From assembly GCA_035221665.1 (NCBI GenBank), contig CM069146.1, forward strand, positions 10,540,001-10,604,000: a DNA stretch of 64,000 bases, given 5' to 3'. The notes beneath the pieces are model-generated. The model saw only the letters and a program-made list of their open reading frames with translations. It searched no databases and had not been told where the DNA came from. This document shows, piece after piece, positions 1 to 61,683 of the stretch. A program made the position numbers and the translations under genes. The DNA comes from Okamejei kenojei. Taxonomy: Eukaryota. Position 1 is the first letter of the stretch; the number at the start of each line of letters is the position of its first letter.

Positions 1-803
1 TATTAACAATCTTAAGACTTATTGGTATAGATTTTAGTTTTAATGCTTTCTTTATTTGTTTCCATATGCGGATTCCATTTTCTATTATCGGATTTTCACT
101 ATAAACTTTCTTAGCTACATTAATATTAGCAAATATTATAGAGCTAATTTCTAATGGAGAACAATCTTCTTCTTCCATACTTAACCAATTTGGTTTATTA
201 TCTATTTCTCCTAACCAAAAATTCATGTTTTTAATATTAACTGCCCAGTAATAAAACATCAAGTTTGGTAACGCTAATCCTCCATTTATTTTAGACTTAC
301 ATAAATGTTTTTTATTTATTCTATGAATCTTATAATCCCAAATAAAATTCGTAATTAAAGAATCTACTTTTTAAAAAAAAATTTTTGGAAGATATATCGG
401 GATTAATTGAAATAAATATAATAATTGTGGAAGAAAAATCATTTTTATTGCATTAATTTTCCCTATCATCGAAATAGGTAAACTTTTCCAGTATGAAATA
501 TTCTTATTTAATTTATCTAGTAATGGGGGAAAATTAGATTTAAATAGAGAATTAAATCTTTTTGTAACAAAAATCCCAAGATATTTAATATTTTCATTTG
601 TTATCTTAAAAGGAAATTGTTGTAATATATGTAACTTATTCATTGTTATAGGCATAAGTTCACTTTTATTCCAATTAATACTGTATCCTGAAAGTGATCC
701 GAATTCCGTTATTAGTTTTAACAAATTTCGAATACTTATTTCTGGTTGAGTGATATAAAGTAATACATCATCTGCATATAAGGAAATTTTATTCTTAGTA
801 TTT
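1..803 (-). mobile_element. L1-clade LINE ORF2 fragment (RT C-terminal half), 5'-truncated and running off the window start
   Basis: The minus strand reads NKISLYADDVLLYI, FGSLSGYSINWNKSE, IKYLGI, KMIFLPQLLYLFQ and NGGLALPN, typical of the vertebrate L1 RT/thumb region. A frameshift sits at the A-run near 372. Confidence 0.85.
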
Positions 804-1429: not shown

Positions 1430-1753
1430 CCTTTCCGATCAAATTCCCAAATCTGACAGCCTTTTGTTCTCCATTAATCAGTCATGTTCCTGTCTTCATC
1501 CTTCCCTTCCTCACCTAACCTCATCTGCCTCCTCATCTGTATCTGCAAATTACTTGCTAGCATTCCCCCCCACCGACCCGCTTTATGCAAATTACTTGCT
1601 AGCATTCCCCCCCACCGACCCGCTTTATGCTGGCGACCTCCTGTAATCTTTGAGTCTAGATAAAGGGTCACGACCCAAGACCCTGTCCCACTGAATTGCT
1701 CCGGCATTTATTATTTTTTTGGCTTCAAAATCCAACATCTGCAGTCACTTGTG
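1430..1753 (+). mobile_element. Degenerate Penelope-like element (PLE) 3' end
   Basis: A pyrimidine-rich tract is followed by a decayed GTCTGAAGAAGGGTCTCGACCC motif (~1654-1676) and a CATCTGCAG tail, as in other copies in the window. Confidence 0.5.
1544..1630. repeat. Perfect 42-bp tandem duplication
   Basis: The unit beginning TGCAAATTACTTGCTAGCATT occurs twice with period 42. Confidence 0.95.
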
Positions 1754-7192: not shown

Positions 7193-8557
7193 CTGAATGG
7201 CAGAAAAGTCAAGGAATGCTATGCCTCTAACTAATTATATAGAATTATCATTCTTGGCAGTATACTTGGCATACTGCAAATTGTAATGCCTGTATTATAA
7301 TATTTGGTGAAGTACGCAGAGAAGTAGGCAAAGAGACAAACTTGAATGCTGAGGGAACGCAGTGTACGATCCACATTGATTAATTGAAGAGCATTTAATT
7401 AATATTACTCAGGGAAATATAATTATCTGACCTACATACAAGCGAGATGTCTTCTCAATGCTTAAGACAATCAACAATATTTTGGACAACGCATTCATAA
7501 CGAGGACAAACCAATAAATGGTAAACATTCCTAGATTGATCAATTCTTAATTTGTCCATCTGTCAGTAAAAAGAAACATTAATTAATTCCACTTTCACAA
7601 TTACTGTGACAGAGAGAAACACATTTCCATCAGAAAGCCTATGTAAAATAAATGACATGCAAAACTAAATACCAAACAGATTTTTGCTGACTTTGGGCAG
7701 AGCTTATTTAATTCCATGAATGTTAGACTGGATTTGCATATGGTTTTATCGCAATTATTTTTTTCTGGCAAGTCAAAATGAAATTTTGAACAAGCTGATT
7801 GCTTTTTGCATGCTGCCAATTCCCGAATCATAAATAGTTTAAGCGTAATATTCCTTTTTCTAATGCTTTTACGTCACATTTTAAGCACTTCAATTATATC
7901 CAATGGAATATGGAATTTAGGATACTGTAAAGTGTCTGATAATAAAAGCCTTTTACAGTAATGAAAACTGTTGTTGATATAACTGTTCAAGCAATAGCTC
8001 ACCAACCAACCACCCACGCTGCATTCGATTACCGGCCCAGCTTTTGCACAGACAAGCTGTTGACAATAAATTTTTGTAGTGACACCTTCCGCAAATCTCA
8101 CTTGCATTGCAAAACAACTTGTTAGCTGCCATACTGCTGCGACCCTTGCATTTATATTTACTGTAGGCTTGAACTCGACTATATATTTCAACCTTATTAC
8201 CAAATCGCGTTGAAGGTTTTTTTTTCCTCAAACGCTACTCCACAAAACCACTGCAAATTGATACTATCAATTAATGAATTACGCAGGTTAGTTCATGAAA
8301 TCCTCCAAAATAAATTGGTTTGTGAATCCCGCAGATGAGCAATTCACTTTATTTTTTAAAGCTAAATATCGCTCAGCAGACTTGGATCCAGTGAGCAATT
8401 CCTTTATTCTATGGGATGATATTTCTGAGGAAAATTATTTCTACTATTTCATTCGTATATTACTTTCCATTCTGTTGATGGGCTTCATTTTTATTGCAAT
8501 TTAGGACCTATTCCCAGAAATTTGGTTAATACATATCAAAGATAGGTATTAACAATA

Positions 8558-8667
8558 GGGGGTTACACAAAAAGCTGGAGAAACTCAGCGGGTGCAGCAG
8601 CATCTAAGGAGCGAAGGAGATAGGCGACGTTTCGGGTCGAGACCCTTCTTCAGACCTTCGTTAACAC
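8558..8667. mobile_element. Miniature PLE insertion (inverted arm plus 12-nt forward tail) with a 15-bp TSD
   Basis: TAGGTATTAACAATA occurs at 8543-8557 and 8668-8682. 8561-8655 is the reverse complement of 12889-12983, and CTTCGTTAACAC matches 13009-13020. Confidence 0.9.
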
Positions 8668-9338
8668 TAGGTATTAACAATATATAGGTTCTAAAGAAAA
8701 AGATTCCTCATTCCATGGAAAAAAATTCTACTTAATGAGCTGTTAAAAGAATATACATGGCAGGCCAATAACTCTGTTATATTCAGGCACACATGCAGTC
8801 TCTCTACTTGGTGTCCTCATTCCCTGCAGAGCATTTGACACTTAAAATAAATGCTTCGATATATTTAGCACAGAACACCTTTATGTAGGTGATCCACTAA
8901 CCTTAGCAGTCAACCATTTTGAGAAGAGGGACTGACATGGTAATAAGGTCTGTGAGATTGAAAATGAACCATGCATTGCAGGATAAATGAGGCCAAGCTA
9001 AAGATAAGAGGAAATGGGTGCCTTAAGCTTTCTGTATAGTCACAATTTTAAAATGGAAAACCTATGTAGGACAGTAGCATAATCATCTATTTTTGTTGTT
9101 TCAATTGTCATAGAGGAAGCCAGCAAAGGGATATTGCAGCTTGTTTCCAAATCCTGTCCTAGATTTTGCTGATCTCACATTATTGCCCACTAATTACTCA
9201 AATTACTCTTTTTTTCTTTCAGCTTCCATTGGAAAGAACATTGCCATGTATGAGTCTAAACTCTCTGTGCTTCTGACATCTAATATTGGAGAAGAAATTT
9301 CCTTCAACTAAATATTGTTAAGACTGGCAAAATATTGT

Positions 9339-10059: not shown

Positions 10060-10515
10060 CATGAGGACCTGCAGATGCTAGTTTTTCCCCAAAAAACCCC
10101 TAAAGAGCTGGAATAACAGTGGGTTGGGCCACACCTCTGAAAGACATGGATAGTTAATGTTATGGTTCGGGACCCTGCTGAATAAGGGTCCCAACCTGAA
10201 ACATTGCCGATCCACATCTTTCAGAGATGTGGCCTGACCCGTTCATAAGTTAATAAGTTATAGGAGAGGAATTAGGCCATTCAGCCCATCATGGCTACTC
10301 TGCCATTCCATCACGGCTGATCTATCTTTCCCTCTCATTCCCATTCTCCTGCCTTCTCCCCATAACCCCTGACACCCATATTAATAAAGAATCTGTCAAT
10401 CTCCACCTTAAACATATCCATTGACTTGGCCTCCGCAGCCTTCTGTGGCAATGAATTCCAAAGATTTACTACCCTCTAGCTAAAGAGGTTATTCCAGCGT
10501 TTCATGCGTTTTGTT
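10060..10515. mobile_element. Inverted PLE pair split by a CR1 insertion
   Basis: Left arm 10060-10177. The right arm runs 10178-10242 and resumes at ~10485 (GTTATTCCAGCG). Confidence 0.65.
10243..10485 (-). mobile_element. CR1 3' fragment with a short tandem-repeat tail
   Basis: An (ATAAGTTA)n tail is followed by AGGCCATTCAGCCC...CCTTCTGTGGCAATGAATTCCA, which encodes WNSLPQKA on the minus strand. Confidence 0.85.
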
Positions 10516-12742: not shown

Positions 12743-13020
12743 TCTCTGCTTTCACTGCTTTCACACCACAAACAGCTTACAATGGCTTGTTCCCTTTATC
12801 ATCGATACTTTTTTGCATATCTTTCATTCATTGTTCTTTATCTCTCCACATCACCGTCTATATCTCTCGTTTCCCTGATCCCTGACCAGTCTGAAGAAGG
12901 GTCTCGACCCGAAACGTCGCCTATCTCCTTCGCTCCTTAGATGCTGCTGCACCCGCTGAGTTTCTCCAGCTTTTTGTGTAACCCTCGATTCTCCAGCATC
13001 TGCAGTTTCTTCGTTAACAC
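12743..13020 (+). mobile_element. Young 5'-truncated PLE 3' end with full tail and TSD
   Basis: Near-identical to the reverse complement of 56391-56615. ACACTGTATTCGG flanks it at 12730-12742 and 13017-13029. Confidence 0.9.
12889..12920 (+). ncRNA. Minimal type I hammerhead-ribozyme-like motif of the PLE terminal repeat
   Basis: CTGAAGA + A + GGGTC-TC-GACCC + GAAA + CGTC gives the conserved core, helix II and a palindromic ACGT helix III. Helix I has only ~2 bp in cis. Confidence 0.55.
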
Positions 13021-13758
13021 TGTATTCGGAGCTCCATCCTGGTCACTGTGATTACCATCACAGTTTTCCGATGGTACATTTAGCATCAAAACGGTACAAA
13101 TATTTGAAATTATGATTCTTTTCAAACTAACTTCTGCAATGCTGCATTTTAAGAAGAAGACTGAATTTTCCAATGCTGAGGCATTAAATTGTGGGAGGTG
13201 GGCAATGCCTCTCCATGTGCATTTTTTCATTGGGCAAATGCATTTTCTTTCGAAATCACTTTCAAAAGAAGGTGGAAAGTAATGATATTGATCCGCTGTG
13301 GGCCACACAGCATTAGGATATGGTTAAGGGTCAGTGAGTCTCTATTGCCAAGCTTGCAATCTCAGCTAAGCCATCTAGCGCTGATGGGGCTTTTCAGGCA
13401 TGCATGATAAACAAAAGGGAAGAAACAAAATGCAGAATATGTACTCAAGATCTGACTTGTTAGAAATCACAATGCGCCTGACCTACATCAAATATCTATC
13501 GCAGATCTGACAGGATTTGAGGCCAAGAGGAATATTCGAATGACATGGAGATTAATTCGGGATCATTCCCTTTTGATCGTGTTCATGTTCACAGTGTGAA
13601 GTTCTTAGGCATGAAATGTTCATTGATCAATAAGTGGACCTTTAGAAAATAAACATAAACATTAATGTATACCCAGGAAATGCTTTTAGAACACCCAGTC
13701 TTTGGTGTCACATACAACCCTCCATTGTATTTGATGGTGTACAGGAATAATTACACAT

Positions 13759-17295: not shown

Positions 17296-17420
17296 AGCGT
17301 TCATGCAGTGCACCCGCGACGAACGGGAGTTCAAGGCGCTCCCACTACATCGGGCCGACAGGTAAGTTTTACCGTGGCCGTGTGTCTTTTTCTCTGTGGT
17401 CTGCTTGTTTTCCAGATAGA

Positions 17421-18658
17421 ATGAGCAAGACCAGAGGGAAGAAATCTGCAGCTCGCCCCCATTCGTCCTCCGTTGAGGAATGCTCTTTGGAGGGGGGGCA
17501 AGAGGCGGCGGGAATAACTACCGAGCCGAGCCCAGCACCGCTCGTGCAGCCTGAGCAGCGGGCTGGAGGTACCTGCAGCCAGAACCGGGCGGTAGTGTCC
17601 GACGATTCGGATGAAGATGCCACACCGCTCGAGAGCAACACAGGCAGCCGCCTAAGCCGAATGGAACGGCTTATACAGCAATTGCTCCAGCGAGATCTGC
17701 TGAGAGAGCAGCAGCAGACTCGCCAAGGGAGCTCAGACACTCCCGCAGTGCCCTTTACGGCACTGGCCATTGCTTCACCTTCTTTTGAAGGCAGCATTGG
17801 CGACCAGGTCTGGGCTGGTCAAGAAGAGGGGTCGCTGGCTGAAGATGTCCGGAGTACGCAGGGTGTACAGGATCAGGAAGAGCTGCTGGGTGTGGTCAAC
17901 CGCTACGTGTCCATTCCACGAGCGGGTCGGCCGTTAGAGCCGAAACTTGCAGCCAGCATTGACCACCTGTCCTCAAAACCCCTACAAGAACAGGTGGTCA
18001 ATGAAGCTCTTGAACAATATACAGCCCCAGAAAATTGTACATCATTGAATGTACCAGCTGTAAACAGCCAAATTTGGGGACATTTGGGGCAGAACATCAG
18101 GAACCTGGAGTTGAAGCTCCAGAAAATCCTTAAACTCCTGACTGCAGGAATAACATCATATGCTCGGTCCATTAATGGTGTGGACATCTCCACAAATCAG
18201 CAAGACACATTAGCTCTGCTGTGCACCACTCAATATGAAATAAACAATTTACGGAAGGAAATCATCAAGCCTGCCCTCAACCCTAAATTTGCGGGACTTT
18301 GCAAAACACCGGGTTCAGAACCTCCAATTCTGCTCTTTCGGAAGGACCTTCCGAAAAAGGTGAAAGACCTAGAGGAAGAATCCAAGACCTTTGGTCTCGT
18401 GAGGGCAGGTTTGGGACCGAGCAGACCTAACAAACCCAGGCGGCAGTACCCCACGGCGTCCACCAGTCGTCGACCACCATATGGGACTGGTGAAAGCTCG
18501 GGGTCCGCAACCATTCCCCGTAAGCCTTTTTTAGGCCAGAGCGGACCCCATGGAAAATGCGCCACCCCCAACAACATCAACATCAACATCAACAGCAGCC
18601 CTCTACAGCCCAGCAGACGCCTCATCGTCCAGCGAAGAGGCAGAAGAAGCACCAGTAA
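17421..18658 (+). pseudogene. DIRS ORF1 (gag-like), probably frameshifted near 18535
   Basis: ATG at 17421 with motifs PENC.SLNVP.VN and LLF..DL..KVK. An alternative frame PWKMRHPQQHQ...KKHQ ends in TAA at 18656-18658, two nt before the pol ATG. Confidence 0.75.
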
Positions 18659-18660
18659 CC

Positions 18661-20238
18661 ATGGAGGTAGGTGGGTCTGGTTCCTCTCAGCATATGAGCA
18701 GTAGGGGCTCTATACTAACAGGGGGGAGATTGCACTTGTTTTTGGATGCATGGGAATCCATCACTAATGACTAATGACACTAATGACTCAGCAGCATTCA
18801 TGGCTATAAAATTGACTTTGTTCATGAAAACATTCCGCCAGTTCAGCATATACCCCAAAGAGTATTCACCCTCTCAGTCAAAGAGAAACAAGAGGGTCAA
18901 GCTGAACTGATGAGGCTACTAGCAAAAGGTGTCATTGAAAGAACAAAACATGAACCTTTGGAATTTGTGTCTAATATTTTCACTAAAATCAAAAAAGATG
19001 GTGGATGTCGCATCATCATTGACTTAACTACTTTAAACAAGTCTGTTAGGTATATACATTTCAAGATGGAAACTTTTGAAACAGCCAGACTATTGGTTTC
19101 TAGAGGGTACTTTCTAGCAAGCATTGATTTAAAAGATGCCTACTACTCAGTACCCATACACAAGGAGCATCGTAAATACTTAAAGTTTATCTGGATGAAA
19201 CAGCTATGGCAATTTAAAGCCTTACCAAATGGGCTAACCTCCGCTCCAAGGTTGTTCACTAAAATCTTAAAACCCGCCTTGGCATTATTGAGGAAACAAA
19301 AGCATATAGTCATGGCGTACTTAGACGACATTCTAATAGTAGGGGAAACCTTGGAGACAGCCATTTCGGCAGTAGCAGCCACCAAACGTTTGTTTGAAAC
19401 TTTGGGGTTTGTCATACATCCAGATAAATCCAATTTTACAACCATTCAAACGGATGCCAGTGCTTTGGGCTGGGGAGCAACTAACATGCAATCCAGCACA
19501 GGGGGCAGATGGACTAATTTTGAATCATCTTGCCTACAGACACGGGGTATCAACTACTTAGAAATGTTGGGTGCGTTTTATGGTTTAAAAGCATATTCAT
19601 CTAATACGCATCATGCACATGTCAGGTTGCAATTAGATAATACCACGGTGGTGGCTTATATCAACCACATGGGTGGTGTAAAGTCAATATCGTGTGACAA
19701 TTTGGTCAACCTAATCTGGCAATGGTGTGTCGAAAGACATATTTGGTTATCAGCAACTTACCTACCAGGTAAGCAAAATACAGTGGCAGACACCAGGTCA
19801 CGCAAATTCAATGATAACATCGAATGGATGTTAAATCCCAAAATATTTGCTGAAATTACAAAGCAATATGGCACACCAGATATCGATCTATTTGCATCCA
19901 GGCTGAATCACCAGGTACCAACGTATGTCACTTGGGAACCAGACCCTGAGGCAGCAGCAATTGATGCATTCTCGCTGCATTGGGGGAAAATGTTCTTTTA
20001 TGCTTTTCCTCCCTTCTGCCTCATCAGTCGGGTATTACGCAAGATTCAATTGGATTCCGCTTCAGGAATCTTGATAATACCCGACTGGCCTACACAGCCA
20101 TGGTTCCCAGTGGCCCTCGACATGGCTGATGAAACACCGTTGGAATTCCCCAGCAGTCGAGAATTATTAATCCACCCAGTGTCAGGCATTAGTCACCCGT
20201 GCCATGACAGAGTCAATCTCCTGGCTTGCAGATTCTAA
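18661..20238 (+). pseudogene. DIRS ORF2: reverse transcriptase, RNase H and adenine-methyltransferase-like domain
   Basis: Motifs IDLKDAY, LPNGL..APR.FTK, YLDD (19318-19329), TDAS..GWG, INYLE, DN, ADT.SR, DLFAS and YAFPPF. In-frame stops at 18772-18786 and an internal deletion near 19440. Confidence 0.92.
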
Positions 20239-21212
20239 AAAGACCTCTACTGGGCCTGGGACTGTCTGAGGACGCCATCAACATGATGACCGCATCCCAC
20301 CGGGAGTCCACCAGGAGACAATACCTGACCAACATAAGAAAATGGGAACGGTATTGCTCCAAAACAGGAACTACCTACACTACAGCTACAGCCACCAGTG
20401 TTGTGGAGTTTCTGGTTGGATTACATCGGGAAGGACTCAGCTACAGCGCCATTAATACAGCCAGGAGTGCGTTGTCAGCTTATTTGGTTCCAGCAGCAGG
20501 ACAACTGGCTTTGGGGTCCCATCCACTAGTGGTCAAAATCATGAGGGGCATTTTTAACACCAATTCCCCCAGACCAAGGTACACTCAGATCTGGGATGTC
20601 AGCATTGTACTGACGTACCTTAGGGGATGGCCACCACCCAGGTCACTCACGCTGGAACAACTTACTCTGAAATATGTCGTGCTCATGGCACTAGTGTCAG
20701 CTCAAAAGGTACAGTCCCTCCACCTTCTGAGGCTGGACAGCATGACAGAGTCATTGGACTGTTTCACATTTCATATTCAGGGACTGGTCAAACAAACTAG
20801 ACCAGGTACCACGCCTCCAGTCATGGAGTTCCGGGCATATTCATCTGACCCACGGCTGTGTGCCAAGACCCATCTCGCCAATTACATAGACACAACATAC
20901 AACTTAAGAGGGAGAGAAAAAGCCTTATGGATAAGCCACAAGAAGCCTCATGGTCAGGTGACGAGACAAACCATTTCAAGGTGGCTCAAGCAGGTGCTTA
21001 AGTCCGCGGGAGTCAATACAAATGTTTACAAATCTCACTCCACCAGGGCTGCATCTACGTCGGCGGCTAGGCGAATGGACGTGCCTATGGACCATATTCT
21101 GGCCAGAGCAGGATGGTCCTCGGAAAGAACTTTCCAAAGGTTTTATAATAAGCCGCTGGCGGAACCTGCTACATTTGCAGACAGAATTTTAGAGTCTGCA
21201 GCTAATATTTAA
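20226..21212 (+). CDS. DIRS tyrosine recombinase (first ATG at 20283; first catalytic Arg appears as Lys)
   Basis: Motifs YSAINTARSALS, HSTR and AGWS...F.RFY. VSAQKVQ stands where SAQR is expected. Confidence 0.9.
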   Translation: MQILKRPLLGLGLSEDAINMMTASHRESTRRQYLTNIRKWERYCSKTGTTYTTATATSVVEFLVGLHREGLSYSAINTARSALSAYLVPAAGQLALGSHPLVVKIMRGIFNTNSPRPRYTQIWDVSIVLTYLRGWPPPRSLTLEQLTLKYVVLMALVSAQKVQSLHLLRLDSMTESLDCFTFHIQGLVKQTRPGTTPPVMEFRAYSSDPRLCAKTHLANYIDTTYNLRGREKALWISHKKPHGQVTRQTISRWLKQVLKSAGVNTNVYKSHSTRAASTSAARRMDVPMDHILARAGWSSERTFQRFYNKPLAEPATFADRILESAANI

Positions 21213-21374
21213 TTTAAGCCGGGGGAGCTCTCTGTTTTTTGTTGTCATTAATAAACCTTTATTGTTCACAAACAGGTTATTGTTGATTGTAATAACATAC
21301 TTCCTCCCTCTAAGGTCTTCAGACAGTGAGTGAAGCATGAGCTGGTACACGGTTCGGATTCACAGAGCTTTGAA

Positions 21375-21488
21375 GTCTTCACATAGTCACTCACGTGACT
21401 CCGAAGTAAAATAGTAAGATTAAATGAGAACTTACCAGTTCGAAGTTTGATCTGTATTTTATGAGGAGTTACGATGAGGGATTACGTG
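21375..21488 (+). repeat. DIRS internal complementary region (ICR)
   Basis: 21375-21412 is complementary to the left end and 21407-21488 to the right end 21639-21720. The halves overlap at TAAAAT (21407-21412). Confidence 0.95.
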
Positions 21489-21607
21489 CCCTCCGCTCCC
21501 ACCCTCTATTATACAGATCAACTGGTAATTAAGTTCTTATTTTTTCTTTACTATATTTATTTCAATTGTTGTGTTTTTTCTGTGAATCCACACCGCTGCT
21601 TTGAAGA

Positions 21608-21720
21608 AATGTCGCGCATGCGTGCTGGACGGGGTCTTCACGTAATCCCTCATCGTAACTCCTCATAAAATACAGATCAAACTTCGAACTGGTAAGTTCT
21701 CATTTAATCTTACTATTTTA
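21608..21720 (+). repeat. DIRS right ITR plus right extension
   Basis: Inverted copy of 17259-17295, followed by the segment complementary to the ICR and ending in ATTTTA. Confidence 0.92.
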
Positions 21721-29029: not shown

Positions 29030-29094
29030 TTCTCTAATGTATTAGAGTACGATGACAAAAAAAAAATTCTCTAATGTATTAGAGTACGATGACA
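29030..29094. repeat. 28-bp direct duplication separated by an oligo-A run
   Basis: TTCTCTAATGTATTAGAGTACGATGACA occurs twice. The unit contains the inverted repeat CTCTAAT-GT-ATTAGAG. Confidence 0.9.
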
Positions 29095-29463
29095 GCAAAG
29101 AGAGCCACTCAGGGGATGGAAACGAGCGAATGCTTGCTTGTGCGCAAGCAACCAATCCACTTTCTCTATATGGTAAATTCATGCAACAATCAGTCTTCAT
29201 TTTGGCAATCGTGGAAACCAAACAGTGGATATTAAGGAGTTGATTCACTGCTGCCTTAATATTTCAGATTGATGCTTTTTAAATACAGTTGTAATAACAG
29301 CAATGTGTTCCAATATTTCCTTTGAATGTTTAAAGAGTCAAACATAGCAACGTAAGAGAATTCAAAAATAAGCCACAAGTAGTTATTCAGACATCCAAAA
29401 GCTTGTTTAAATTAGCTGATACGAAACATCCCAGAGGAAGATCAAGAAGGTAAGAATGAGGAT

Positions 29464-36800: not shown

Positions 36801-37084
36801 CATCTACCTGTCTCTTATTTTCCTATTGCCCATCAATTTGCTCCCAACAACTCCCGTTATTTGTTTTGTGCTTCAGATGTCAATTAATCTAGCAGCTCAT
36901 CTCCAAAAGATCAGACAGTATCTGTGGAGCGAAATGGGCAGATGACATTTATGGTCAGAGGTCAGAATCCAGCAACTGCAGTCTCCTCTGTCCCCAGCTG
37001 AAATCCGCCTATCTTAGAGGAATGTGCAAGCTCCGCACAAATACCATTTGAGGTCAGGATCAAACCCAGCTCCCTTGCTAACTG

Positions 37085-37299
37085 TAGATCGATGCAAAAT
37101 GCTGGATAACTCTGTGGGTCAGGCAGTACCTCTGGAGAAAAAGGATGGATGACAATTTATGTCGGGATCCTTCTTCAGACTGTGAAGAAGGGTCCCAACC
37201 CGAAACGTCACCCAACCTTTTTCTTCAGAGATAATGCCTGGTTAAGTTACTCCAGCAATAAGCAAAGGTATAAATCGGCAGTTCTTTGTTTCCACATTT
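37085..37299. mobile_element. Asymmetric inverted PLE pair with a 14-bp TSD (2 mismatches)
   Basis: TCCCTTGCTAACTG at 37071-37084 and TCCTTTGTTAACTG at 37300-37313. The centre reads CTTCTTCAGACTGTGAAGAAG. Confidence 0.8.
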
Positions 37300-37799
37300 T
37301 CCTTTGTTAACTGCTTCCTCGATGTCCCAGGTGTTTCTGCTTATTTTATACATTTAAATACATAATTACATGCAGTTAATAATTGTTTATATAATGTAAA
37401 CAGGACAAAACCCATATCTAGGTTTTCCAAAGGTTGCAATTATAACCTGTAAATATTCACTTAATATATCAAAAACATTTGCAAACATTGTGGTTTAGAC
37501 TTCAGGATTGCGGGAATGTATAAAAGATTTTAATAAGATATTTAATAAAAACATGAATAAAAGCAAAAAAAGTCACTTAATTCATTGATTTTCTATATAA
37601 TTTAAAATAAATTCATCTATTTCTGTCATGATCATATCCATTTTCCTTTTATTTACTCGTATTATAATTACGTTCCATTGGAGACGTTTGAGCACATAAT
37701 TATGGCTGGCACTGTCAGAGGTGTCACCTTTCAGAAGAAATAAAAAGAACATCTCTAGTTTTTGGTCAAATATGATTCCAAGGCAACATTTCACAGAAA

Positions 37800-40973: not shown

Positions 40974-41022
40974 TTCTCCACTTAATGTCCTTACTGATGA
41001 AGGCCAGCTAGCCAAAATCTTT

Positions 41023-41253
41023 AGTATGTGTAGGAAAGGACTGCAGATGCTGGTTTAAATCGAAGGTAGGCACAAACTGCTGGAGTAAGTCAGTGGGACA
41101 GGCAACATCTCTGGAGAGAAGAAATGGGTGACATTTCGGGTCAAGACCCTTCTTCAGACTGATGAAGAAGGGTCTCAACCTGAAACATCACCCATGCCTT
41201 CTGTCCAGAGATGCTGCCTGTCCAGCTGAATTACTCCAGCAGTTTGTGTCTAC
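41023..41253. mobile_element. Asymmetric inverted PLE pair with a 15-bp TSD (1 mismatch)
   Basis: CTAGCCAAAATCTTT at 41008-41022 and CTAGCCAAAAGCTTT at 41254-41268. The centre reads CCCTTCTTCAGACTGATGAAGAAGGG. Confidence 0.88.
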
Positions 41254-41936
41254 CTAGCCAAAAGCTTTCATCATCACTTCCTACCTGTGGCTCCACACCC
41301 AGGGAACTATGTAGTTGTACTCCCAGGTCCCCCTGTTTAGTTTAGTTTAAGATATACCTGTTTAGGCCCTGGAGATTCATCCAACTTTATATCCAGCACT
41401 TTCTCTACTGTAATGCATACTATCCCCAAGGTCACCCCACTAACTTTCCTGAGTTACCTCATCTTTATATCTTTCTCCGTGGTCAAACACAGAGGTGAAA
41501 TGTTCATCGAGGACCTCACCCACACCCTGGAGCTCTGCACATAGATGTCCACTTAGGCTTTTGAGGAGCCATTACTCTTTTAACCTTAGTACACATAAAA
41601 TCTCTTTGGATTCTCCTTACTCTTGTCTGCCAAAGCTTTCTCATGCCCTCCCAATTACCTGCTGAAGTATACTCCAGAATTTCCTATACTCTTCTGGAGA
41701 TCCACTTGATCCCGGCTGCCTGTTTCTAACCCATGCTTGCATCTTTTTTCAGTTCAGAGCCTCAAACCAGGGTTCCCTACTGCCAACTTTGCCCTTCACT
41801 CCAATAGGAACAATGGAGACCTTGAACTCTCACAATGTCACTTTTAAAAGCCTCCCACTTGTTCAATACCCATTCACCCACAAACAGCCTACTCCAATCA
41901 ACTTTTACAACTGCCTGTCAAATACTAAGCTGCACA

Positions 41937-46845: not shown

Positions 46846-47166
46846 GTGGGCCTTTCATTATGTACGGAGGTTGTGTTGTTCCTTAGAAAAGAGGTGGTCT
46901 CAAGAACCGAAGAATGTTGAATGAAGGTGAGTGGCTAAAGAGCCGAGCCAAAAGATAATTTTTTTTAAAGGCAGTGAAATATTAAGATGTAAAATATATT
47001 GCACGATTGGTGGCTGAAGAAAGGCGGAGGCAATTAATTTGTTGCATTCAGTAATGGACTGTACAAGAGACTTTTTTTTTCAATTTTGAAAATGAAAACA
47101 AATTTGCGGAGCGACAGAGTAATTGGGCAGAGTGTGACTAGTTGGCCTGCTCTTGTTTTGAGTTAG

Positions 47167-47377
47167 ATGGACACAAAAAGCTGGAGTAACTCGGTGGGAA
47201 AGGCAGCATCTCTGGAGAGAGGGAATGGGTGACGTTGTGGGTCGAGACCCTTCTTCTTCTCGACCCAAAACGTCACCCATTCCTTCTCTCCAGAGATGCT
47301 GGCTGTCCTGCTGAGTTACTCCAGCTTTTCGTGTCAATTTTCAGTTTAAAACAGCTTCTGTAGTTCCTTCATACATA
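47167..47377. mobile_element. Asymmetric inverted PLE pair with a 15-bp TSD (1 mismatch)
   Basis: CTTGTTTTGAGTTAG at 47152-47166 and CTTGTATTGAGTTAG at 47378-47392. The left arm is short and the right arm carries the tail. Confidence 0.88.
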
Positions 47378-47540
47378 CTTGTATTGAGTTAGCCCAATTG
47401 TGATGGGCTGAATGGCAGCAATCTCTGTCTCCTTGTAATCCAGTAACAGCAACCTCCACTGTTGCTGTACCAAAAACCGAGAATTCCCCACTTATCAGTA
47501 CTGTGGGAGTCACAAAAAATATTGAAGATGCTGTACTCTT

Positions 47541-47659
47541 GAGCAAAACACAAAGGGCTGGAGGAACTCAGCTAGCTGGGATTAACCCAAAATATTGTCT
47601 GTCCATTCCCTCCATAGATGCTGCCAGACCCACTGAGTTCCTCCAGTTTGTGTTTTGCA
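47541..47659. mobile_element. Older small inverted PLE pair
   Basis: GCAAAACACAAA...CTGGAGGAACTCAG is mirrored by CTGAGTTCCTCCAG.TTTGTGTTTTGC. Confidence 0.65.
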
Positions 47660-56390: not shown

Positions 56391-58337
56391 GGGTACACAA
56401 AAGGCTGGAGAAACTCAGCGGGTGCAGCAGCATCTAAGGAACAAAGGAGATAGGCGACGTTTCGGGTCGAGACCCTTCTTCAGACTGGTCAGGGATCAGG
56501 GAAACTAGAGATATAGACGGTGATGTGGAGAGATAAAGAACAATGAATGAAAGATATGCAAAAAAGTATCGATGATAAAGGGAACAAGCCATTGTAAGCT
56601 GTTTGTGGTGTGAAAATGAGAAGCTAGTGCGACTAGGGTGGGGGAGAGAGATAGAGAGAGAGGGAATGCCAGGGCCCAAGGGCTGAGGGATAGGTGGGAA
56701 GGGGAGGAGACAGCAAGGGTTAACAGAATTGAGAACATTCAATGTTCAAGCCCAGAGGATGCAGACTCCCCAAGCGGAATATGAGGTGCTGTTCCTCCAA
56801 CTTGCGGTGTTGCTCACTCTGGCTGTGGAGGAGGCCCAGGACCAAGAGGTAGGATACAGGAGGGGGAGTTGAAGTGCTGAGCCACCAGGAGGTCGGGTTG
56901 GTTAATGCGGACCGAGCGGAGGTGTTCGGCAAAACGATCGCCAAGCCTCCGCTTGGTCTCACCGATCTAGATCATCTGGCATCTGGAGCAGCGGATGCAG
57001 TAGATGAGGTTGGAGGAAGTGCAGGTGAACCTCTGTTGGACCTGGAAGGACTGCTTGGGTCCCTGAAAGGAGTGGAGGGGGAGGTGAAGGGACAAGTGTA
57101 GCATTTCTTGCGGTTGCAAGGGAAAGTGCCCGGGGAAGGGGTAGAGCGGGAGGGAAGGGAAGAATTGACAAGGGAGTTGCGAGGGAGTGGTCTTTGCGGA
57201 AAGCAGACGGGGGGGAGATGGGAAGATGTGGCCAGTGGAGGGGTCACGTTGGAGGTGTAGAAACTGGCGGAGGACTATGTGTTGTATTTGCCGGCTGGTG
57301 GGGTGAAAGGTGAGGACCAGGGGGACTCTGCCCTTGTTGCGAGTGGGGGAATGGGGAGAGAGGGCAGTGTTGTGGGGTATGGAGGAGATCCTGGTGTGAG
57401 CCTCATCTATAGTGGGGGAGGGGAATCCCCGTTCTCTGAAGAATGAGGTCATTTGTGATGACCTGGTGTGGAACACCTCATCCTGGGAGCAGATGCGGCA
57501 TATACGGAGGAATTGGGAATAGGGGATGGAGTCCTTACAGGATGGAGGGTGGGAGGAAGAGTAGTCCAGGTAGCTGTGGGAGTCAGTTGGTTTGTAGTGG
57601 ATGTCGGTCAGGAGTGTATCACCTGCAATAGAGATGGTGAGGTCAAGGAATGGTAGGGAAATGTCAGAAATGGTCCAAGTGTATTTGAGTGCCGGATGGA
57701 AGTTGGTGGTGAAATGGATGAAGTCAGTCAGTGGTGTGTGGGTGCAGGAGGTGACATCAAAGCAGTCATCGATGTAACGGAGGTAAAGGTCGGGGATGGG
57801 GCCCTGGTACGCTGAGAACAAGGATTGTTCGACGTACCCGACAAAGAGGCAAGCGTAGCTGGGGCCCATGCGTGTGCCCATAGCTACGCCTTGTGTTTGG
57901 AGGAAATGGGAGGAGTCAAAAGAGAAGTTATTGAGGGTAAGGACCAACTCCGCTAGGCGGAGGAGGGTATCAGTGGACGGGTATGGGTTGCTCCTCTGGT
58001 CGAGGAAGAACCGGAGGGCTTTGAGACCGTCCTGGTGGGGGATGGAGGTGTAGAGTGACTGGATGTCCATGGTAAAGATGAGAGAAACGGGGCCTGGAGA
58101 ATGGAATGCGTGGAGCCGACGGAGAATGTCTGAGGTGTCTTGAACATAGGTGGGGAGGGATTTAACAAAGGGGGATAGGATGGAGTCAAGGTATGTGGAA
58201 ATGTGTTCGGTGGGGCACGAACAGGCAGAGACAATGGGTCTGCCAGGGCAGTCGGGTTTGTGGATTTTGGGGAGAAGGTAAAATCGGGCCGTGCGGGGCT
58301 GGGAAACGATGAGGTCGGAGGCTCGGGGGGGGTAGGG
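56391..58337 (-). mobile_element. 5'-truncated Penelope-like element (RT, GIY-YIG endonuclease and terminal repeat)
   Basis: Motifs FYLLPKIHK, GRPIVS, DIQSLYT, GVAMG, YLRYIDD, FLDL, CNRKKCYTC and LIYCI.C...*IGET.R.L..RF.EH. Confidence 0.93.
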
Positions 58338-58449
58338 AGCCGCAGCTGATGAAGTCAATTATTGCAGGTTATCCTGTATCTGTCTGTTTTTACAGCTATA
58401 GAACTTGGAGCTGGTCCGGTTGCATTTCTGGACTACTGCAACTTTTATT

Positions 58450-61610: not shown

Positions 61611-61683
61611 GCTGAAATTGCTCAGTTGGGAGAGCGTTACCCTGAAGATCTAAATGTCCATGGTTCAATCCCAAGTTTCAGCA
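61611..61683 (+). pseudogene. tRNA-Phe(GAA) pseudogene, 73 nt, no CCA
   Basis: It differs from the canonical vertebrate tRNA-Phe at about 10 positions. The anticodon stem is disrupted (TTACC vs TTAGA); the GAA anticodon and A/B boxes are recognisable. Confidence 0.88.

What the first reader, a model, noticed from the sequence alone, without database searches (positions are those of the whole stretch)
41008..41268. Recurrent palindromic Penelope mini-insertions with one long arm, one short arm and 14-15 bp TSDs
Seen: here, at 47167-47377 and 37085-37299, and in reduced form at 8558-8667, two opposed terminal-repeat copies join at or near the CTGAAGAAG core. One arm keeps a ~35-40 nt tail (CAGCATCTGCAGTT...) and the other stops near TTTGTGT(C/A). 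The joins differ between copies, arguing for independent origin rather than one MITE. Established: inverted terminal repeats and a short tail are known for PLEs. Inference: a reproducible two-primer integration route whose cDNAs both end at the ribozyme-like structure, seeding ~100-bp hairpins that could form dsRNA in host pre-mRNA. This is the best candidate here for an under-described system.
Basis: partly seen in the sequence, partly recalled or inferred. Interest (0 to 1): 0.7.

Follow-up and report, generated by a model that had tools for sequence, protein, structure and literature searches.

The report
Two-primer Penelope mini-palindromes
This hairpin is one of an estimated 200,000 small insertions of a known kind of jumping gene (Penelope-like) in a probable shark or ray genome, each likely built on the spot from two short DNA copies of the same RNA end, and their strict long-arm/short-arm pattern would make a poorly understood copying step testable.

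Summary
In detail: all four named copies have the stated arms and 14-15 bp target-site duplications (TSDs). They are head-to-head pairs of the 3' repeat of a Neptune/Nematis-type Penelope-like element (PLE). A 1.06-Mb sample holds 83, so roughly 200,000 genome-wide. Among 59 independent young copies, none has two tails or two plain short ends; TSDs run 11-25 bp (median 15); there are 44 join types; both arms share alleles (53/54, 47/49). That rules out a MITE and supports two primings from one template source, at two fixed sites about 35 nt apart. Many joins lie up to 50 nt inside. Host-gene dsRNA is unsupported: no exon or editing data. Inverted repeats, tails, opposite-strand hammerhead pairs and two-site initiation are published; the strict coupling was not found in my searches. 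This scan reported the same family earlier on other DNA of this genome.

The parts
41008..41022 (+). left TSD copy (15 bp)
   Evidence: 14 of 15 alike with 41254-41268
41023..41162 (-). long arm: PLE 3' repeat from -5 through the minimal hammerhead, the short-end site and the ~35-nt tail
41163..41253 (+). short arm: same repeat from +2 to the short end, no tail; hammerhead C3 lost at the join
41254..41268 (+). right TSD copy
47152..47392 (.). second palindrome with 15-bp TSDs: short arm 47167-47257 (-), long arm 47258-47377 (+, starts +12)
37071..37313 (.). older palindrome with 14-bp TSDs: short arm 37085-37183 (-), long arm 37184-37299 (+, decayed tail)
8543..8682 (.). young reduced form with perfect 15-bp TSDs: short arm 8558-8655 (-, to -2) plus 12-nt tail-end remnant 8656-8667 (+)
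10061..10243 (.). further, older head-to-head pair (TSD weak)
47520..47655 (.). further, decayed head-to-head pair
56391..58358 (-). 5'-truncated ORF-bearing PLE copy (RT, Cys linker, GIY-YIG, 3' UTR, hammerhead, short end): the parent family of the young arms
12759..13021 (+). young read-through copy with tail and 13-bp TSD; used as coordinate reference

Best explanation
These palindromes are Penelope-like retrotransposon insertions, each likely made afresh when both strands of a target cut with a roughly 15-nt stagger prime reverse transcription of one RNA at two fixed internal sites, and both copies would run toward that RNA's capped 5' end and be joined there. Shown: two 3' ends about 35 nt apart (about +94 and +128), one of each per palindrome; variable TSDs and joins; arms with the same alleles; a sharp stop at -2 to -4. 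Inferred: the geometry (each arm reads as cDNA from a 3'-OH at the far edge of the TSD) means 3'-overhang nicks; the short site is usually primed first (its arm reaches further, and long arms can be a 12-nt stub), leaving the tail free for the second primer, whose cDNA must displace the first; the stop is a transcription start at the conserved YCAGT just upstream of the hammerhead, with the extra C copied from the cap; the two cDNA ends are joined by blunt or 1-7-nt microhomology repair, favoured by the near-palindrome CAG-N-CTG. The hammerhead is a passenger in this step. The hairpins are by-products, not a selected regulatory RNA.
For: Long/short pairing: 58 of 70 resolved random palindromes against 49% expected from singles (p 1e-8; aged tails inflate short/short); 62 of 65 young loci, and of 59 independent events none long/long, with the one apparent short/short (L221) a long arm carrying an internal deletion and one (L167) having a tail-less arm cut at +60. 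Same template source: +81 allele shared in 53 of 54 (43% discord expected), +91 indel in 47 of 49 (41% expected). Short arm further 5' in 26 vs 9 young (p 0.006) and 28 vs 12 random (p 0.017). 5' stop: genome-wide 4,126 young arms leave the template after -2 and 3,626 after -3, against 14,442 that read through to -8; 202 of 249 core-reaching arms of all ages have no upstream element sequence, although at least two unrelated upstream UTR types exist. Extra C: G next to the 5' end in 9 of 15 untemplated junctions at -5..-1 (about 28% expected) and microhomology in 9 of 28 there against 14 of 23 upstream; C follows -2 in 44 of the first 100 listed, G in 22 (hand count). PMC11167929 (main text read): a Poseidon PLE protein nicks and extends both strands, starts at two internal sites that bound the tail, needs no 3' end and no hammerhead cleavage. 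PMC2912911 (passages): extra 5' G read as a reverse-transcribed cap; microhomology rarest at full-length L1 ends.
Against: No direct RNA evidence: only contigs were available, and no copy with a 5' pLTR joined to the ORF start was found among 12 long copies and 113 tail flanks. The cap signal is a small sample, partly drawn by patterns that select on the next base; 9 of 15 versus 2 of 7 upstream is not itself significant, and a generic C-adding habit of the enzyme is not excluded; after -3, C is only 37 of 100 (hand count). Longer inverted insertions keep the long/short rule even when one arm stops at -3 and the other reads far upstream (L128, L272, L281), which one shared stretch of RNA does not explain without a template jump. 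Hybrid arms exist (L226, L217; long/long L133). PMC11167929 saw no difference in start site between the two strands in vitro, and studied a different clade. In D. virilis Penelope the start site lies upstream and an intron ends at helix I (PMC2377424, PMC4209133; passages), and the sequence before -1 here also looks like a splice acceptor.
Confidence: 0.62

Rival explanations
1. Two RNAs from the same source locus are held by an asymmetric protein dimer (perhaps paired through the dimeric hammerhead); one subunit always starts at the short site, the other at the long site. Same product, no strand displacement needed.
For: Long/short rule holds where the two arms end at very different 5' points (L128, L272, L281, L340/341, L382); rare hybrid arms (L226, L217, L133); predicted dimer in PMC11167929; minimal hammerheads are thought to act as dimers (PMC4209133).
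Against: Needs one dominant source per cell to give 53 of 54 and 47 of 49 shared alleles while several haplotypes coexist; gives no ready reason why the short arm is the more complete one.
Confidence: 0.2
2. The 5' stop is made by the ribozyme or by another processing step (self-cleavage, a fold that stalls the enzyme, or the acceptor-like CAG at -4..-2), not by a promoter; the two-primer step is as above.
For: The stop coincides with the 5' strand of helix I; partner arms start in +24..+28 in 5 and in +29..+33 in 22 of the first 100 listed, a step at the predicted cut (hand count); a pyrimidine tract and CAG precede -1 in all upstream types.
Against: The cut site is +28/+29 and only 4 of those 100 start exactly at +29; the step is also explained by C/T microhomology; singles show no peak there. 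A fold would stall the enzyme at its 3' side. No spliced or exon-carrying copy: TSDs found further off enclosed only PLE pieces in 13 of 13 cases among 60 loci. Cleavage leaves no cap, so no extra C.
Confidence: 0.1
3. One primer only: the nucleic acid folds back at a palindrome and self-primes, copying itself into the second arm (the self-priming idea of PMC3846280).
For: Explains identical alleles at once; the commonest join is the near-palindrome CAG-N-CTG (about 10 of 59).
Against: A fold-back from the long arm must leave the long arm reaching further 5'; the short arm does so three times as often. One from the short arm cannot create the tail. The short end matches the end of single insertions. 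8558-8667 has a 12-nt second arm that shares nothing with the first. Many joins are blunt or hold inserted bases.
Confidence: 0.06
4. A MITE or master palindrome that moves as a unit.
For: High copy number, inverted arms, some joins recur; 6 of 65 young loci repeated another.
Against: Unequal ends, TSDs 11-25 bp, 44 join types in 59 events, lengths 81-251 bp. Repeats of one join share their TSD and flanks, i.e. were carried inside another element or duplicated (L276/278/282/290/083 with the empty site in L032; L163/L170).
Confidence: 0.02

Closest known systems
Inverted-pLTR insertions of EN+ Penelope-like elements with a 30-40-bp tail at one end (A. vaga Pen2a, D. virilis Penelope; PMC3846280, PMC8557442, PMC2377424; passages read)
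   Same: Head-to-head 5'-truncated copies, tail at only one end, variable TSD, short overlap or palindrome at the inverted junction.
   Different: No ORF or direct pLTR inside: both arms are about 100 nt; estimated 2e5 copies; TSD about 15 bp against 8-10 in A. vaga; the one-long/one-short rule and shared alleles are counted here.
Anolis Poseidon (PAc) in vitro: internal two-site initiation, both strands nicked and extended (PMC11167929, main text read)
   Same: Two start sites downstream of a hammerhead that bound the tail; hammerhead cleavage not needed.
   Different: Here a Neptune/Nematis-type element; the genomic record couples the two sites to opposite strands of one insertion and shows a fixed 5' stop, neither described in the text I read.
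Minimal type I hammerheads of metazoan PLE pLTRs (PMC4209133, results and discussion read)
   Same: Core, extra base before helix II, G10.1-C11.1, palindromic 15.2/16.2, short helix I; that paper notes opposite-strand pairs 100-700 bp apart in Schistosoma.
   Different: Pairs here are back to back with no spacer; activity untested.
L1 twin priming (as described in PMC2912911, passages)
   Same: Both target ends prime on one RNA; cDNAs joined by microhomology; TSD kept.
   Different: Both primers start at fixed internal sites, there is no poly(A) primer, and both copy the same 90 nt, giving a palindrome; in L1 the inverted pieces do not overlap (recalled).

Membership tests
EN+ Penelope-like element | Single ORF with RT followed by a C-terminal GIY-YIG endonuclease | tested here: met
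   Long copies ending in the same repeat carry RT (PF00078, E 2.8e-6) then GIY-YIG (PF01541, E 0.0027); both under Pfam's cut-off; 1,765 relatives at E<=1e-30, many with both domains.
EN+ Penelope-like element | CCHH motif with cysteines between GIY and YIG | tested here: met
   LIY-C..C..C-YIG with two later histidines in L381; definition from PMC8557442.
EN+ Penelope-like element | Inverted terminal repeat, 30-40-nt tail at one end, variable TSD | tested here: met
EN+ Penelope-like element | Direct 5' pLTR ahead of the ORF | tested here: inconclusive
   No complete 5' end among 12 long copies or 113 tail flanks.
Neptune/Nematis clades | CX2-5CxxC linker between RT and EN | tested here: met
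   C-X4-C-X2-C before the nuclease.
Neptune/Nematis clades | RT phylogeny separating Neptune from Nematis | not tested
   No labelled reference set was fetched; no tree built.
Minimal hammerhead (min-HHR) | Core, extra base before helix II, helix II, palindromic helix III | tested here: met
   Helices I-III 77-83% paired in 26 copies, no covariation above shuffles; Rfam gathering search gave no hammerhead hit.
Minimal hammerhead (min-HHR) | Self-cleavage | not testable with these tools
   No peak of ends at +29.
MITE | Fixed short TSD, equal terminal repeats, uniform body (recalled definition) | tested here: not met
L1-type twin priming | Both primers on one RNA | tested here: inconclusive
   Shared alleles show one source, not one molecule.
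L1-type twin priming | Poly(A)-primed arm and non-overlapping inverted pieces (recalled) | tested here: not met
   No poly(A) tail; arms overlap in sequence.
Retrozyme | Two same-strand hammerheads bounding a unit that circularises (recalled) | tested here: not met
   Hammerheads face away from each other on opposite strands.

The most novel reading that the evidence does not exclude
Two-strand priming is the normal PLE reaction: one RNP starts at two sites near the capped 5' end of its RNA, makes strong-stop-like cDNAs as LTR elements do, and long copies arise only when one of them jumps to the 3' repeat. Failed jumps leave palindromes and solo arms, and the ~130-nt arm, carrying its own start site and both priming sites, could act as a self-sufficient SINE-like unit (an estimated 1.2 million arms in this genome).
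Probability: 0.25. Interest if true: 0.75.

Novelty: new variant of a known kind. Interest (0 to 1): 0.48.

Why it matters
How PLEs, the sister group of telomerase, make their inverted repeats and tails is stated as unresolved in PMC8557442, and PMC11167929 leaves the later steps unvalidated. This genome holds thousands of young, readable products that give hard rules for a bench system that now exists: one start site per strand, a 13-17-nt stagger, one template source, a fixed 5' end. They argue against the published self-priming idea. An estimated 2e5 near-perfect 50-100-bp hairpins could also be a large source of double-stranded RNA, as Alu pairs are in primates (recalled), but that is untested.

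Tried and rejected
DNA search of the genome with the young arm returned nothing (common words skipped); exact patterns were used instead. The 30 best matches to the palindrome are biased to its shape and were not used for counts. HDV-, hairpin- and type III hammerhead readings of the -2 end were checked by eye and did not fit. Exon capture or a spliced form: none. A shared sequence after the tail turned out to be a carrier element, not the ORF leader. Linkage across the -3 boundary as a test of a template jump: persists (r2 up to 0.70), inconclusive because a source's two repeats would usually match. Single arms fold no better than shuffles (z -0.2, 0.5, -1.9); a stem pairing +49..56 with the tail is 93% paired but shows no covariation (one search was a mis-registered structure, discarded). 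A TATA-like word at about -30 is in only some upstream types. Host gene: 147 of 554 candidate unique frames scanned, one weak Pfam hit that failed follow-up; contig runs covered little but repeats in 21800-48500, which shows nothing either way. Editing, small RNAs and start sites could not be read from contigs. No structure or complex prediction was run.

Full report
Setting. The window is G000:C16:10540001-10604000 of a 2.76-Gb animal genome. The closest named relatives of the element's protein are from sharks (68-70% identity), so the host is probably a cartilaginous fish (inference). Positions count from the C of the CTGAAGA core (+1).

Observation. All four named copies are as described, with TSDs alike at 14/15, 14/15, 12/14 and 15/15. 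Three more head-to-head pairs lie in the window. In 100 evenly spaced 10-kb stretches of contigs C1-C18 plus the window (1.064 Mb) a profile found 451 arms; 83 of 124 adjacent head-to-head pairs are within 40 nt, against 6 of 100 tail-to-tail and 16 of 136 tandem pairs. Extrapolated, that is about 2e5 palindromes and 1.2e6 arms. Exact patterns for one young subfamily give 54,550 arms and 2,215 + 854 palindromes (lower bounds).

Parent element. The arm is the 3' end of an ORF-bearing element: 56391-58358 (-) in the window and 12 longer copies, up to 3.8 kb. The ORF has RT, a C-X4-C-X2-C linker and a GIY-YIG nuclease with the CCHH motif, the layout that PMC8557442 gives for Neptune and Nematis (passages). 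The core matches the minimal hammerhead of PMC4209133; its predicted cut is +28/+29. No complete 5' end was found.

Outer ends. 3' ends fall in two groups, about +88..+100 and +124..+132, about 35 nt apart: the known tail. PMC11167929 shows for an Anolis element that these are two internal reverse-transcription starts and that both target strands are nicked and extended (its three text supplements gave no hit; figures not seen). Singles are 131 short and 94 long, so free choice gives 49% mixed pairs; 58 of 70 resolved random palindromes are mixed (13 of 83 unresolved or at an edge). Of 65 young loci 62 are mixed; six repeats of the same insertion were dropped, leaving 59 events with no long/long pair. 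TSDs are 11-25 bp, median 15; singles have median 14.

Arms come from one source. The +81 allele agrees in 53 of 54 and the +91 indel in 47 of 49 palindromes, where about 40% discord is expected; private differences are 81 in 4,818 sites. In the aged random set partners are 83% alike against 77% for foreign arms, though 12 of 57 are no closer than the median foreign arm. Later gene conversion is not excluded. Exceptions are L226, L217 and the long/long L133.

Inner ends. Joins are diverse: 44 types in 59 events, blunt, with microhomology, or with inserted bases. But there is a wall at -2 to -4. Genome-wide, 4,126 young arms leave the template after -2 and 3,626 after -3, against 14,442 that continue to -8; stops at -4 to -7 were not counted. 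In 53 young arms picked without regard to their 5' end, 24 of the 43 that reach +3 stop between -7 and +3, and the other 19 end anywhere over 1.5 kb or beyond (hand count). Across ages 202 of 249 core-reaching arms lack upstream element sequence, with at least two unrelated upstream types. The wall is 30 nt from the hammerhead cut and on the side that the enzyme reaches last, so neither cleavage nor a stall fits. A template end does. An extra C often follows (9 of 15 untemplated junctions; 44 of 100 after -2; weaker after -3, 37 of 100) and microhomology is rarer there (9 of 28 against 14 of 23), as at full-length L1 ends where a copied cap is the accepted reading (PMC2912911, passages). I read it as a start site at the conserved YCAGT; this is inference. 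Against it: small numbers, an acceptor-like context, and the D. virilis arrangement. Partner arms show a step just past the cut site (5 starts in +24..28, 22 in +29..33 of 100) but no peak at +29 (4 of 100), so a minor role for cleavage stays open (hand count).

Mechanism. Each arm reads as cDNA running inward from the far edge of the TSD, so both target ends primed, from 3' overhangs of about 15 nt (follows from target-primed reverse transcription). The short arm reaches further 5' about three times as often as the long one, and long arms can be stubs (12 nt at 8656-8667; about 39 nt in L276). That favours short site first, tail second, on one RNA, and counts against fold-back self-priming (PMC3846280 discussion), which needs the long arm to reach further. 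A two-RNA asymmetric dimer remains the main rival, since the rule also holds in longer inverted insertions where one arm stops at -3 and the other reads upstream. A MITE is excluded; recurring joins with the same TSD were carried by another element.

Host effect. The 41008 copy folds into a 90-bp hairpin, but no host exon, transcript or editing could be shown.

Novelty. Inverted pLTRs, one-sided tails, opposite-strand hammerhead pairs and two-site initiation are in print. Seven searches of the held library showed no paper on the strict long/short coupling, the shared alleles or the 5' wall; subscription papers, Repbase notes and figures were not seen. Eight earlier notes of this scan on other pieces of this genome reach the same family and similar readings; my reading was recorded before that look-up, and they are not independent support. 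Verdict: real, a new variant of a known kind, useful as a mechanistic record; interest 0.48.

Noticed in passing
window 17298-21720: DIRS-like tyrosine-recombinase retrotransposon with three long open frames (RT/RNase H/Dam-like, integrase) and an 82-nt perfect inverted repeat at 21407-21488/21639-21720.
   Followed up: partly
L276, L278, L282, L290, L083; empty site in L032: One PLE mini-insertion (short arm plus tail remnant, about 10-bp TSD) sits near the end of another repeat family (DIRS-like by appearance, not tested) and was amplified with it; the carrier's 22-mer occurs 413 times. L163/L170/L171/L205 look like a second carried insertion.
   Followed up: partly
repeat positions +49..+56 and +104..+111: An 8-bp stem joins the arm to the tail in all subfamilies (93% paired, no covariation), enclosing the short start site; a candidate binding structure.
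   Followed up: partly
upstream of -1, e.g. window 12845-12888: Pyrimidine tract, branch-point-like word and CAG resemble a 3' splice site; sense copies in introns might be exonised.
   Followed up: partly
L166, L216, L200, L206, L174: Extra A runs at long ends, as from slippage at the start of synthesis.
   Followed up: no
L381, L382: The PLE ORF is unusually long (open frame of 1,064 codons) with a proline-rich insert ahead of the RT.
   Followed up: no
window 61611-61683: tRNA-like match (Rfam, 42.5 bits), possibly the head of a SINE.
   Followed up: no
window 1544-1627 and 29030-29099: Exact 42-nt and near-exact 37-nt tandem duplications.
   Followed up: no
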